Assembly: GCA_951406725.2 (NCBI GenBank)
Contig: OX597822.1
Span: 32,798,001-32,862,000, forward strand
Length of the DNA: 64,000 bases
From: Octopus vulgaris
Lineage: Eukaryota
Direction: 5' to 3'
In this document: positions 22,209 to 50,647 of the stretch, one piece after another
How the letters are laid out: each line of letters starts with the position of its first letter
How positions within the stretch are numbered: the stretch's first letter is position 1
The notes under the pieces: model-generated
Databases searched by the model: none
Seen by the model: only the letters and a program-made list of their open reading frames with translations
What the model was told of the DNA's origin: nothing
Made by a program: the position numbers and the translations under genes

Positions 22209-22393
22209 CAGATTTTGTTGAATTTTCTGCTGCTTTAAATAAAGTATATATATATATATATATACTTTATTTAAAGCAGCAGAAAATTCAACAAAATCTG
22301 TTACTCTGAGTTTTAAATAAAGCATATTACTCTACCACTGGTATTTGAGTACTCTTTTTTCCACCTTGTTTCCCATTTATGTGTTTACTCCGG
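22209..22393. mobile_element. Short PLE-type insertion: 92-bp perfect palindrome plus 3' half of an HHR
   Basis: 36-bp arms around (TA)n at 22209-22300; minus strand AAA-CTC-A-GAG-TA-ACAG at 22297-22313. Confidence 0.6.
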
Positions 22394-22846
22394 TATATAT
22401 ATATATATATATATATATATATATATATATATATATATATATAAATACATACACATACGCTACGCGTTTAGAGTTTTATATATACAGATATATAATTAAT
22501 ACATAGTCTTAACGGCTATCCTCTTCAAATTAAACTACAAACACACACATACATAAACAAATCAATCTGTTTAGATAAGATTTTATAATTATAGATATAT
22601 AGGTAATAATATACATTGAATATGTCAACCAATATAAATTTACATAGATAACGGTTTTATTTTTATTTTCATTTATATTATATATTTAATATCATTTGTC
22701 TTTGTATGTTTTACCCTTATGCTATTTATTAAAATATTTTTTTAAAGATTATTAGCATACTCCTACGCACAATAAATATATATATTTTAAGTTTATTTGT
22801 ATATTGATAAAATACACTCCATCAATATGTAACTCTATTATACTTT

Positions 22847-22971
22847 GGCTCTGATGAGATTCTACTGAATATTATTCAAAGTGCTGTTTTATTTTTATTA
22901 TTTTATTTTAGATTTTTTCTAATCTTTGAATTTGCAATTGTATATTGGACTGAATTGAAATGCATGTAGAC
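22847..22971 (+). ncRNA. Possible degenerate hammerhead with ~90-nt loop II
   Basis: CTGATGA-GATTC...GAATT-GAAA-TGCATG-TA; stem I poor; lies downstream of GIY-YIG relic 3 and ~190 bp before a (TA)n tract. Confidence 0.35.
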
Positions 22972-23659
22972 TTTATGTGGCAGTATGGTGATTAATTTTA
23001 TATCCTTAGCAACTCACCATTCTTCTTCTTTAATCATATTTATACTTATAATAATCACATATATTATATATATCGATTAGATATTTCTCAACGGTGTCGT
23101 TGATTAAACCAGAGAAAATTCAAACAATCCTTTATGAGGGTCGCAGATATCATCGCATATATATATATATATATATATATATATATATATATATATATAT
23201 ATATAGTCCATGTGAAGATATATTACCCTTATATATATATATGTGTGTGTGTTTGTGTGTATGTATGTATCTGTGTCACTATATTTGTCCGCCTATAACC
23301 GCCTGATCACTGGTATTGGCGTATTTAGGAGCTCGTAACCTAACTGTTCAGCTAGAGACACCGATAGAATAAGTACTAAGCTTAAAAATTAGTCCTGGCG
23401 TCGATTTGTTTAACTAGGATCATTCAAGGCGGTACTGCAACATGACCTCCGTCAAAGGAGTGGAAGAAATAAAATAATAAAAAGAAACGAATAAACTCAA
23501 AAAGTGATTTAATATCACTTCCATGGATGAATTTCGCACGTCTTGTATCATCACTTATACTTTAAAAGTAAAATATTAACTTTTGCAGTGTCCATTTTAT
23601 TTACCATTAACCATGTTCAATGCTTTTTATTCGTACCTTACACAAACCTAATATTTGTA

Positions 23660-24198
23660 CAATGGAAGTCTGTCGGGGATCGACAATGACGTCAGTGACG
23701 CCGGAGGTGGGAGCGTGACCCAAAGGCAGACGCGCAGACGGACTTGTCGCTTCTGGTCCAGGATCTTGAGGCGCTTTTCCTTGAACAGCCTAACTCCCTT
23801 TTGGACAGCTGGACGCCAGGCGTCGCAGTCAGAGGCAAGCGATTCCCAGTTTCGGGCGGAAATGCCGCAGGCCTCAAGTGAAGTTTTCAGGCTGTCCTTG
23901 TATCGCCTCAGTGGTCTTCCAGTGTTTCTTGCTCCAGAAGCCAGCTCAGAGAAGAAGATCACCTTTTGTAGACGCGCGTCGTCCATTCGGACTACTGCTT
24001 GTCCGACCCACCGGAGCTGGGCCTTCATGATGAGGGCTTCGATTTCGGACATTTCGGCTCTGCGAAGCACCTCCGTATTGGAGACTCTGTCCTCCCAGGA
24101 AATTCCCATGATTCGTCACAAGCAGCGGAGGGGGAACTAGTCAAGTACTCGCATTTGCCTCCTATACAGCGACCACATCCCACTGCCGTAGAGCAGAT
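23660..24198 (-). pseudogene. RTE-clade LINE reverse transcriptase C-terminal fragment
   Basis: LLYGSGMWSLY..ISWEDRVSNTEVLRRA..QLRWVG..RMDDARLQKVIFFSEL..GRPLRRYKDSLK..NWESLASDCDAWR; stops upstream, 5'-truncated. Confidence 0.9.
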
Positions 24199-25309
24199 AT
24201 GTGTATGATAAACAATAACTTACAAAGGTTACATATGCGTTGCATACCTTGTAAGCAAAAACTGACATCGTACTGATGTCTTTATGCGTAAAAAAATGAT
24301 GAACATTCAGAGTATATTCTCTTTATCCATAATATGCAAAATCCAATGGCTGTAGCTTTGCTGGTGCACTGCCATTTATAAAACGGTGACACATCGAAGT
24401 GATTGTATGAAATGTAAGCAGCTATTATGCTTAGATTTGGGACCAATTCCCAAGTAATTTTATTCTATGCATGCAAATATAAAAATATTTCGAAATCAGC
24501 GATATGTGAACCCGTTGCACCTGTACAGGTAATGCCGATCTGATTGGGGGGGGGGGAGTGAGCTTATGTCTACACAAATATTTGGACACTATAAATAAGT
24601 CATCTGTGTGGTTTTTCGGTAAGAAATTGTCGAACCCTCATATGTCGTTTAACGACGGGAGAGTCCCTCATACACACACACACACACACATACACACACA
24701 TATATATACATACATATGTATGTGTGTATGTATATTTCTATACTCACACACACACATATATAACAGAGGGACAGACAGACAGATAGATAGTTTTTTTTAT
24801 ATGCATATATGATAGAAAACAACCCACCATACTAGTATTGTTTGTTATAAATCGGAGAGAAATATATTTATATACTATATAAAATATATTTAAACAAATA
24901 TAATACAGTGATGCATGCATGTACATATTCATATGTATATATATATATATATATATATATATATATATGTGTGTGTGTGTGTGTGTGTGTGTGTGTGTAT
25001 GTTAGTGTATATGTATATAATATTACTGCATATAAATATATTTCTGCAAGGTAAAATAAATAATACAATGCACACTGCATCAACATGAACAAAATTAAAA
25101 AAAAATTATTTGCTGTACAAATAAGTACATAACATCTTGAGTCATATGTTAACGAAATGAAAATACAAGATTATATTTACCCTGAATGGTTTAGGAAAAC
25201 AGACTACGTCTGTGTTCATCTAGTGTTTCGTAAAAGATTATTCTCTGGCGCTACATAAGTATCATAATATTCAACACAATTGATGTGGACATTACAATTC
25301 CAGCATCTA

Positions 25310-25498
25310 CTTACATACATATATACATACATACACACACATATACATATATGTTGATACGTATATGCTTATGTATATAAGTATACGCTTATGTATATAA
25401 GTATATGAATAAGTATATGTATACATATATACATACATACACACATACACATATACCTATATGTTGATACGTATATGCTTATGTATATAAGTATATGA
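25310..25498. repeat. Local tandem duplication of a low-complexity unit (~130 bp period)
   Basis: ATGTTGATACGTATATGCTTATGTATATAAGTATA at 25351 and 25461. Confidence 0.7.
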
Positions 25499-48326: not shown

Positions 48327-48372
48327 TCTAGGCCGATGAAGGACAACGATCCTGAAACACGGTGTCCCTAGA
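48327..48372 (+). ncRNA. Minimal type I hammerhead ribozyme
   Basis: TCTAGG-CCGATGA-AGGA(CAACGA)TCCT-GAAA-CAC(G)GTG-TC/CCTAGA; all three stems pair; cleavage after 48366. Confidence 0.8.
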
Positions 48373-49561
48373 TGCAGTTCCGGCAGCCGGAGGTGTTTGT
48401 CTCCCCTTCGTATATGTATATAAGGACACAGGGAAAAAATGTGTCAAAGCTATCAGGAGGCGTTCGATGCTTCCTAGGGCTATACAGCGGTGGTGTACCC
48501 CCTACTGTCACGTTCTTGTTAGATTGACAGTATACAACCATTCTATATATATATATATATATATATATATATATATATATATATATATATACATATGTGA
48601 CGGGCTTCTTTCAGGTTCCATTTAACAAATCCACTCGCAAGGCTTTGATCGCTCCGAAGCCATACTAGAAGACACTTGCCCAAGCTGACATGCAGTGTGA
48701 AACGTGGAACCATGTAGTTGGGACGCAAGCTTCTTATGACACCGCGACGCTTATGCCTGTTTTCATTTTTTTATTTTCATCATGTTATAATGAAAATGTT
48801 TTTTATCGATATTTTATCGATATTCTTTCTCAAAACTAAAAGCTCGCTATTTACAGTCAATGTTCAATGCGGCCATCTCCTTCGCTAATTTCTATCTCTT
48901 TCTGTAAACTGTGACTCACGACTGAAACTTCCGTCGACACGACTATATTGTTTTGGCAATTATAATCTTTAAAATATCAAGGAAATATTATTTGCGTATA
49001 GGAAACACAACAAATCAAAGTTCCTTCACACTTCACTGGTATAAAGCTTCCGATCTCCCGTATAGAAGCTTAAACGCCATTTTACTGTTTCTTTATTTCG
49101 ATATTTCTAAGAAGTATTTGATGATGAAAGAAAGATTTTTTCCAATGTCTTGGTTTTATTTTCCGATTTCACTGTTTTATAAATTTAGATCATTGTTTTT
49201 TTAAAGTTTCAGAATGTAATTGTATATATAGAAAAAAGATGGGATATGCGTACGTATATACACAGATGTATAAGCATATGTATGTATATATATATATATA
49301 TATATATATATATATATATATATATATATATATGTATGTATGTATGTATGTATATGTATATATATATATATATATATATATATATATATATATATATAGG
49401 TGAGAAAGTTGGTGTGTGAAAGCACGTGGTTGAATATATAGAAAATAGTAAAAAGTGAAAAAACTACAGAAGGCTTGTTTTAAAAGGTTAAAAAATATAT
49501 ATTTTAGTCATTATGTCTGAAGAATGTTATAAATTTTTTTCCTAAAATGACATAGTTTTTG

Positions 49562-49601
49562 AAGAAATGACCAGTTTCGCGTTCAGCTTTTCAAATTTCT
49601 T
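49562..49601 (-). ncRNA. Minimal type I hammerhead ribozyme, U3-A8 variant
   Basis: AAGAAAT-TTGAAAA-GC(TGAAC)GC-GAAA-CTGG-TC/ATTTCTT; 7-bp stem I. Confidence 0.7.
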
Positions 49602-49752
49602 ACATGGTTATCTTTACGTTGAGAAGTGTGAGAAAGAGTTCCAGATAAGGGGCGGTAATAAGTGATTTCTTCCGGTGTAAGGGAGATAATCGCTTAATAT
49701 GTCTTGCCTTTTTTTTTTTGAGTGAGTTTCTCTGTATAACAATGTTGGAATG

Positions 49753-49917
49753 GTTAAGTTTGGGCTTGTATTTTTCAATGAAGAATGTTTCTTTGTTTAG
49801 TCTAATTTGTGTTGGTGTTCCGATAGCACATTGCTAAAATGGAAAGATTAAAAATTGTGGTAGTAGTTGCTTTGCGCATTTCTCAATGTGCTCACTAAAG
49901 GGTATCATTCTGTATTC
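49753..49917 (-). pseudogene. PLE GIY-YIG domain C-terminal fragment
   Basis: EYRMIPFSEHIEKCAKQLLPQFLIFPF*QCAIGTPTQIRLNKETFFIEKYKPKLN (typical E..FI...KP.LN end). Confidence 0.75.
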
Positions 49918-50647
49918 TTCGAAAACTATGTCATTGTATGAAAAAAAATTATAACATTCTTCAGACATAATGACTCAAAATATATATTTTTTAACCTTTT
50001 GAAACAAGCCTTCTGTATTTTTTATCACTTTTTACTATTTTTTTATATATATATATATATATATATATATATATATAGAGAGAGAGAGAGAGAGAGAGAG
50101 AGAGAGACAGAGAGAGAGACAGACAGACAGACAGACAGACAGATACACATTATAAATAAATATTAGTTACATATACATGCACATTTGTATGTGTATATGT
50201 ATGCACATGCATATATGAAGGATGGCTGCAATGTTCCTGGCTTTGCATCAAAGCAAATGCTTTGCATCAAAGAAAGCGCCGAAGGATTGGTTGATTATGA
50301 TTTTATACAACATATTCTCACCTCTTAGATTCACACAGTTACTGCAGAGATCCTGCAGTTTCTCTATGATGTGTATAAGAACTTTGAAGTTTGAGTCTCC
50401 AGCCAGGCCTTCCGCGACACCTGTAAAACCAGGAACTTTTCAGGACCCCGCGTATATAAGTGTTCATATATAGCTATAAATATTATATATATATATATAT
50501 ATATAAAATGCAAGTTGACACATATTTATGTAAATTATTCATCATATTTTAAATATAGAACTGTATTTTATATTTATGCGTTTATATGTATTTATACACA
50601 TCTGCATATGTATACACACACATACTAGCACACACACACGTAGATAG

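What the first reader, a model, noticed from the sequence alone, without database searches (positions are those of the whole stretch)
22209..50048. Inverted duplications start at the predicted ribozyme cleavage site
At 49 kb the inverted arm starts (49914, ATTCTTC..) within ~2 nt of the predicted GUC/ATTTCTTC cut. At 22 kb the inverted arm (22209, CAGATTTTG) starts 1 nt after GUA/ACAG. At 36 kb it starts ~8 nt after GUU/AGAC. Three unrelated elements sharing this breakpoint would be a genomic footprint of in vivo self-cleavage defining the template end used in PLE reverse transcription.
Basis: partly seen in the sequence, partly recalled or inferred. Interest (0 to 1): 0.7.

Follow-up and report, generated by a model that had tools for sequence, protein, structure and literature searches.

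The report
Ordinary two-armed Penelope retroelement insertions
Three mirror-image repeats do begin 2 to 9 bases past predicted self-cutting RNA sites of jumping-gene remnants, but neighbouring and related copies mostly run straight through such sites, so this is likely the ordinary two-armed insertion pattern of Penelope-like elements rather than proof that the RNA cuts itself in living cells.

Summary
The three inverted arms exist and start +2 (22 kb), +9 (36 kb) and +3 (49 kb) from the predicted cuts; none starts at +1 without a gap. The 49-kb hammerhead is a credible U3-A8 minimal type; the 36-kb one is decayed and the 22-kb one lacks its 5' half. The geometries differ: the 22-kb arm is tail-to-tail, and that locus's head-to-head junction lies at -12/+27. 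No genome was held, so the histogram was run on a stand-in: 79 loci of one hammerhead family from another organism. Of 55 inverted arms, 31 cross the cut and 3 start at +1..+3 (1.5-2.0 expected); 10 lie within ±4 (3.9-5.4 expected), 6 of them upstream of the cut. The sharp boundary there is 32 nt upstream of the cut, at a TATA/initiator-like site. Verdict: known Penelope-like insertion architecture; a general cleavage footprint is not supported. A minor cleaved-template route in this genome's families stays open (about 25%), because the window's clustering is somewhat unlikely by chance and was not testable genome-wide.

The parts
22209..22244 (+). 22-kb arm A: 36-nt copy of +2..+37 of the element, tail-to-tail with arm B across a TA run
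22265..22313 (-). 22-kb arm B: -12..+37, holds only the 3' half of a possible hammerhead (helix III and GUA); predicted cut after 22302
   Evidence: ribozyme identity inferred
22312..22395 (+). 22-kb arm C: head-to-head partner of B, about +27..+110, ends in a TA run
   Evidence: register inferred from an 11-nt overlap with A
35988..36136 (-). 36-kb main arm with decayed hammerhead (core 36123, long helix II, palindromic helix III, predicted cut after 36076); 5' end within 13 nt upstream of the core
36137..36216 (+). 36-kb inverted arm starting at +9
47816..48142 (-). 48-kb inverted arm, starts at -97 and contains a whole type I hammerhead (core 48079, cut after 48046): counter-example
48141..48546 (+). 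48-kb main arm, partial tandem with 364-nt period, hammerhead core 48333, cut after 48366
49399..49433 (-). 35-nt tail present on the 49-kb main arm only
49434..49913 (-). 49-kb main arm; minimal hammerhead at 49562-49601 with U3-A8 core (49594-49588), predicted cut after 49569
49914..50050 (+). 49-kb inverted arm, +3..+135, ends in a TA run

Best explanation
These are head-to-head insertions of the hammerhead-bearing 3' ends of likely Penelope-like elements, in which each arm is likely a separate short cDNA copied from uncut RNA and stopping at a variable point, so that three arms starting near the predicted cut is most likely a selected coincidence with at most a mild local preference. Steps: (shown) two oppositely oriented arms, both 3' ends in TA-type microsatellite, a 35-nt tail on one arm only at 49 kb; (from the literature) the Penelope protein nicks and extends both target strands, starts reverse transcription at two internal sites, and does not need ribozyme cleavage in vitro; (inferred) one cDNA is primed on each strand, or the second arm arises by snap-back of the first, and the two 5' ends are joined through 0-6 nt of microhomology or a short hairpin-like insert; (inferred) because the RNA starts shortly upstream of the hammerhead and copying starts 60-170 nt downstream of it, arm ends are confined to a zone of roughly 100 nt around the ribozyme whether or not it cuts.
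For: Window: 48-kb arm starts at -97 and the 22-kb head-to-head junction is -12/+27; no arm aligns to +1 without a gap. 49-kb family has a recurrent short 3' end at 49434 (39 contigs in run X2, 20 in X4) and also covers the 35-nt tail. Stand-in family M (79 loci): 31 of 55 adjacent inverted arms cross the cut, 25 by 5 nt or more; 3 of 55 at +1..+3 (expected 1.5-2.0, p 0.18-0.33); only 1 of 55 can reach +1 allowing microhomology. Unselected 5' ends: 42 of 81 in -33..-1 against 6 of 81 in -127..-34; 60 of 77 main arms end at -29..-34, 20 at -32, with TATATAA 32 nt upstream. One long and one short 3' end in 35 of 40 classifiable pairs, p 3e-6. Three arms in three other families start at -30, +120 and -27 (L167, L237; L266). 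PMC11167929 (read, parts 1-2 of 4): ribozyme mutants do not affect insertion in vitro, no RNA-seq reads begin or end at the cut. PMC4209133 (parts 1-2 of 4): paired hammerheads on opposite strands 100-700 bp apart, low in vitro activity. PMC8557442 (passages): hammerhead-less Naiads make the same inverted structures.
Against: Three of five scored ends in the window fall in +1..+9, post hoc P 0.003-0.005. Family M shows an excess within ±4 (10 of 55; p 0.005 against a flat -34..+70 null, 0.036 against ±25, uncorrected; it fades to 0.028 and 0.15 with all 81 ends) and an empty stretch at +5..+13. Family M is one assembly from another organism and its helix I is only about 2 bp, so its ribozyme may be weaker than the 49-kb one (7 bp). 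L164, left out by my family filter, ends its main arm at the cut. Two unchecked earlier notes report some over-use of the cut in other genomes.
Confidence: 0.6

Rival explanations
1. Minor cleaved-template route: in some families a fraction of RNAs is cut by the hammerhead in vivo, and the short arm is a cDNA that runs off the 5'-OH end of the 3' product and loses 1-2 nt on joining. This would explain +2 (22 kb) and +3 (49 kb), less well +9.
For: Offsets +2 and +3; low post hoc P for the window; the 49-kb family keeps the U3-A8 core with no variant listed at 1% and restores a palindromic helix III (A>G at 49573 in 150,758 of 152,876 depth), and its variant at the cut base keeps a valid triplet; 4 of 55 family M arms at +2..+4 followed by none at +5..+13; unchecked notes e1-9822609 and e1-9850483.
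Against: No arm starts cleanly at +1 in the window; 48-kb arm at -97; in family M the +1..+4 count is not significant (p 0.13-0.29) and 31 of 55 arms cross the cut; PMC11167929 finds unprocessed RNA the dominant substrate. The 49-kb start may be set by microhomology: 3 contigs of run X7 (agreement 0.63) suggest the upstream element sequence itself continues with a TATTCT-like word across the junction.
Confidence: 0.25
2. Structure, not chemistry: reverse transcriptase pauses at the folded ribozyme or its palindromic helix III, or the cDNA folds back through helix I complementarity, so ends gather a few bases on either side of the cut without any cleavage.
For: 6 of the 10 family M ends within ±4 lie at -3/-4, the centre of the helix III palindrome, which a cleaved product cannot template; 12 of 26 junctions with inserts of 4 nt or more carry a hairpin of 4 bp or more at the main arm's 5' end (no control computed); at 36 kb the arm is joined within 13 nt of the core, next to helix I. 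PMC3846280 (passages) reads junction palindromes as self-priming.
Against: At 49 kb the junction is 345 nt from the cut, so helix I foldback cannot place it; the 49-kb motif folds no better than shuffles as a monomer (z 0.37).
Confidence: 0.12
3. The 22-kb and 36-kb cut sites are misassigned or the 22-kb palindrome is a later DNA-level duplication or assembly artefact, leaving one real case.
For: 22 kb lacks the CUGANGA half and arm A is 100% identical to B with the same 3' end; 36 kb has 3 core mismatches; neither passed my scans.
Against: The 36-kb motif shares a 14-nt helix III/cut word with a better hammerhead at 18.5 kb downstream of a GIY-YIG remnant (wider homology not significant, 64 of 300 shuffles score as well). 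This rival is compatible with the best explanation, so it is scored only as a sole account.
Confidence: 0.03

Closest known systems
Insertion architecture of endonuclease-bearing Penelope-like elements (Craig et al. 2021, PMC8557442; Arkhipova et al. 2013, PMC3846280)
   Same: 5'-truncated copies, an inverted 5'-truncated copy adjoining the 5' end, a 30-40 nt tail on one end only, TA microsatellite targets, palindromes or microhomology at the junction.
   Different: Those passages do not place junctions relative to the ribozyme cut; no RT or endonuclease frame was found in cis to the three arms studied here.
Minimal hammerheads of metazoan Penelope-like elements (Cervera and de la Pena 2014, PMC4209133)
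   Same: Type I minimal motif with palindromic helix III; the U3-A8 core variant at 49 kb was described there in Schistosoma elements; pairs on opposite strands 100-700 bp apart as at 48 kb.
   Different: Helix II at 49 kb is only 2 bp; 22-kb and 36-kb copies are partial or decayed; no activity tested here.
Poseidon element of Anolis in vitro (Frangieh et al. 2024, PMC11167929)
   Same: Two reverse-transcription start sites giving the tail; both target strands nicked and extended; ribozyme cleavage dispensable.
   Different: Different clade and an in vitro system; it does not model the inverted junction.
Animal non-LTR retrozymes (bioRxiv 10.64898/2026.07.22.740005; part 1 of 5 and passages read)
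   Same: The 48-kb element has a 364-nt tandem period and a canonical-size type I hammerhead.
   Different: Only a partial tandem is present here and the two hammerheads are on opposite strands.

Membership tests
Penelope-like element (EN+) insertion | Inverted 5'-truncated copy joined head-to-head at the 5' end | tested here: met
   36, 48, 49 kb and 22-kb B/C; 22-kb arm A is tail-to-tail
Penelope-like element (EN+) insertion | 30-40 nt tail at one end only | tested here: met
   49 kb: 35 nt, recurrent short end at 49434. Not established for 22 or 36 kb
Penelope-like element (EN+) insertion | Hammerhead in the terminal repeat | tested here: inconclusive
   Met at 48 and 49 kb; decayed at 36 kb; half missing at 22 kb
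Penelope-like element (EN+) insertion | RT plus GIY-YIG endonuclease frame in the parent element | tested here: inconclusive
   None in cis to the arms. A separate remnant at 18.8-19.1 kb has a weak GIY-YIG hit (E 0.017, below cut-off; Atlas 0.90 to a cluster with 12% GIY-YIG)
Penelope-like element (EN+) insertion | Target-site duplication | tested here: inconclusive
   Window copies end in TA runs, not scorable; family M 15 of 46 share 8 nt or more against 3 in an offset control
Minimal type I hammerhead (49 kb) | Core CUGANGA/GAAA or the U3-A8 covariant, NUH triplet, helices I-III, palindromic helix III | tested here: met
   Helix I 7 bp, II 2 bp, GUC; core without listed variants and palindrome restored in family contigs
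Minimal type I hammerhead (49 kb) | Self-cleavage | not testable with these tools
   No raw RNA reads; needs an assay
   Stand-in family M: 1 of 55 can reach +1, 3 of 55 at +1..+3. Not testable in the window's own families
Non-LTR retrozyme (48 kb) | Tandem 150-450 nt units each with a type I hammerhead | tested here: inconclusive
   364-nt period from a 39-nt direct repeat, one hammerhead per arm; no full dimer

The most novel reading that the evidence does not exclude
In families with a strong helix I, a share of Penelope RNAs is cut by its hammerhead in the germline and the cut 5' end is copied into the short inverted arm, so arm starts at +1..+3 are a countable fossil record of in vivo ribozyme activity, lying beside a second, larger boundary at the transcription start just upstream of the ribozyme.
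Probability: 0.25. Interest if true: 0.65.

Novelty: new member of a known kind. Interest (0 to 1): 0.3.

Why it matters
The role of hammerheads in Penelope-like elements is stated to be unclear (PMC8557442) and dispensable in vitro (PMC11167929). A peak of junctions at the cut would be in vivo evidence and needs only a genome to test. The data here point the other way for one family (uncut RNA is copied, up to a start site about 32 nt upstream of the cut), which agrees with the in vitro result. My paper searches listed no study that plots junctions against the cut, but the library lacks most subscription journals.

Tried and rejected
No genome held, so the genome-wide histogram could not be made for this species. 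Rfam scan: the 150 of 222 matches shown were almost all microsatellite-driven miRNA models, none a hammerhead. Strict core scan found none of the three motifs; relaxed scans are near shuffle background below score 10. Run search: no RNA holder listed; best holder shares 0.49 of words. Logan contigs of 4 runs on 49402-49913 gave one strand-switch joint (49603/49717, run X7), not at the cut, with 24 of 521 loose-end rows shown; run X2 on 49515-49625 gave no joint and no loose end on the upstream side of the cut among 6 of 26 places shown, 42 of 332 contigs partly laid. Contigs drop rare junctions, so this is not counted as evidence. Exact window words found nothing in metagenome, prokaryote or viral collections. 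General hammerhead patterns: 0 of 120 viral matches had both stems; 5 of 145 did, 1 with an arm. The neighbour-copy scans had masking errors and are replaced. The 62.8-63.5 kb foldback was excluded: no convincing hammerhead. Rows dropped from family M: of 121 loci, 82 passed the downstream-sequence filter; L180 and L237 (another family) and L137 (same contig as L136) were removed; L164 and L231 of the same assembly failed the filter (L164 diverges at the cut, L231 ends at the contig edge). Only 11 of 64 parts of the collection were scanned. Supplements of PMC11167929 (Fig. S2) were not read and bear on the RNA-end claim.
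Full report
Setting. The window is 35% G+C, rich in microsatellites and dispersed repeats. It looks cephalopod-like to me from recall; no call names the organism, and no genome is held. A masked self-comparison lists six local inverted repeats: 22.2, 36.0, 47.8-48.5, 49.4-50.0, 62.4/63.8 and 62.8-63.5 kb.

The three sites. Positions are given relative to the predicted cut, +1 being the first base after it. At 49 kb the minus strand carries a minimal type I hammerhead: helix I 7 bp, core UUGAAAA, helix II 2 bp, GAAA, GUC, cut after 49569. The core is the U3-A8 covariant described for Schistosoma elements (PMC4209133). Contigs of run X2 list no variant at the two core bases at the 1% level, restore a palindromic helix III (A>G at 49573, 150,758 of 152,876 depth) and vary at the cut base to another valid triplet. 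The inverted arm aligns from 49915 to 49566, which is +3. The main arm reaches -345 and ends 35 nt further 3' than the inverted arm; the shorter end at 49434 recurs in 39 contigs of X2 and 20 of X4. This is the Penelope tail signature. At 36 kb the motif has a long helix II and a palindromic helix III but three core mismatches; the arm starts at +9 (+17) and is joined within 13 nt of the core. At 22 kb only 12 nt upstream of the GUA remain. Arm A starts at +2 but lies tail-to-tail with arm B across a TA run; the head-to-head junction of this locus is between B (-12) and C (about +27).

What was left out. The best hammerheads in the span are at 48079 (minus) and 48333 (plus), in 98% identical arms; the inverted arm starts at -97. 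Further motifs at 17.9, 18.5 and 39.5 kb have no inverted arm within 1.5 kb. So 1 of 4 head-to-head junctions lies at +1..+3 and 2 of 4 at +1..+9. Counting arm A too, 3 of 5 ends fall in +1..+9, post hoc P 0.003-0.005, or 0.11 for ±9. That is not trivial, but the cut sites at 22 and 36 kb were assigned in damaged motifs and the cases were chosen by eye.

Which end could the cut define? Not the priming end: the 3' ends are at +37 and about +110 (22 kb), about +88 (36 kb), +135 and +170 (49 kb). The only workable version is a cDNA running off the 5' end of a cut RNA, which predicts starts at +1 and few arms crossing the cut.

The histogram on a stand-in. A general hammerhead pattern in metagenome contigs returned 121 loci from 11 of 64 parts of the collection. 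79 independent loci from one assembly belong to one family, here family M (dropped rows are listed under Tried and rejected). It behaves like a Penelope end: 3' ends at about +60 and +104, one long and one short in 35 of 40 classifiable arm pairs (p 3e-6, 15 unclassified), and flank duplications of 8 nt or more in 15 of 46 against 3 in an offset control. No coding frame was sought for it. 55 of 79 loci have an adjacent inverted arm. 31 of 55 cross the cut, 3 start at +1..+3 (expected 1.5-2.0, p 0.18-0.33), 4 at +1..+9 (expected 4.4-6.1) and 10 within ±4 (expected 3.9-5.4, p 0.005-0.036 uncorrected), 6 of those at -3/-4. Allowing microhomology, only L185 reaches +1. The strong boundary is elsewhere: 60 of 77 main arms end at -29..-34, 20 at -32 exactly. 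Main arms were selected to reach -29, but the unselected ends show the same wall: 42 of 81 in -33..-1 against 6 of 81 in -127..-34. A TATATAA lies 32 nt upstream of the A at -32, within TTAGTC; that this matches a TATA plus initiator promoter is recalled knowledge, and a splice acceptor at the same AG is a weaker alternative. PMC3846280 notes TATA and initiator-like words in rotifer terminal repeats (passages). Arms in three other families start at -30, +120 and -27. Limits: one assembly of another organism, helix I of about 2 bp, ends called by local alignment with a few bases of uncertainty, and L164 ends its main arm at the cut.

Literature. PMC11167929 (parts 1-2 of 4 read): two internal initiation sites make the tail, both strands are nicked and extended, ribozyme mutants do not change insertion, no RNA-seq reads begin or end at the cut. 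PMC8557442 (passages): the inverted 5' copy and one-sided tail are typical and also occur in Naiads without canonical hammerheads; hammerhead function is unclear. PMC4209133 (parts 1-2 of 4): low activity, dimer requirement, proposed processing role without in vivo evidence. The retrozyme preprint (part 1 of 5 and passages): 1 of 9 dimers cleaved. Searches listed no junction-versus-cut analysis.

Earlier notes of this scan (unchecked, other genomes): one reports over-use of the cut, one only mild preference, one a pile of ends 8-12 nt upstream of the core. The last agrees with family M; the first two keep the minor-route rival alive. None is independent support.

Mechanism and verdict. Most likely (0.6): two short cDNAs, or one cDNA and its snap-back copy, made from uncut RNA at a microsatellite target and joined head-to-head; ends fall between the RNA start just upstream of the ribozyme and the initiation sites downstream, hence near the ribozyme by geometry. 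A minor cleaved-template route (0.25) and pausing or foldback at the ribozyme structure (0.12) are not excluded. The architecture is known; the proposed footprint is unproven and failed the one family-level test available. Interest 0.3.

Noticed in passing
L122-L241 (family M), -29..-34 from the cut: Hard wall of cDNA ends 3 nt upstream of the hammerhead core, 32 nt downstream of a TATATAA: likely the transcription start, read from DNA alone.
   Followed up: partly
family M junctions, e.g. L134, L136, L177: Short inserts that are palindromic copies of the main arm's first bases (12 of 26 inserts of 4 nt or more), like an opened hairpin; suggests snap-back second-strand priming. No control computed.
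   Followed up: partly
L164: Family M copy whose main arm stops at the predicted cut, the only such 3' end seen among 81 loci of that assembly.
   Followed up: no
window 22201-22208: GGTTAGGG, an 8-nt telomere-repeat phase, directly 5' of arm A (about 1.4e-4 per site by composition; the word occurs 4 times in the window). Possible telomerase-type patch at the junction, or chance.
   Followed up: partly
window 47816-48546: Young retrozyme-like element with 364-nt period and two near-canonical hammerheads on opposite strands.
   Followed up: partly
window 16590-18222 (+) and 18450-19900 (-): Two decayed Penelope-like remnants, tail to tail, each ending in a hammerhead-like motif (cores 17952 and 18559); the second has a GIY-YIG remnant split from its RT end by an ATT run.
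   Followed up: partly
window 39340-39600 (-): Solo element end with a perfect-core minimal hammerhead (core 39555), no inverted arm.
   Followed up: partly
window 62784-63451, flanked by 62358-62452/63741-63837: 668-bp near-perfect foldback with a palindromic centre, inside an older 77% inverted pair; origin not determined.
   Followed up: no
L266, L278, L295, L318: Contigs filed in bacterial genome bins that carry animal-type minimal hammerhead ends; probably host DNA in the bins.
   Followed up: partly
window 23648-24115 (-): 155-aa frame that resembles the C-terminal end of an RTE-type LINE by recall; no Pfam hit.
   Followed up: no
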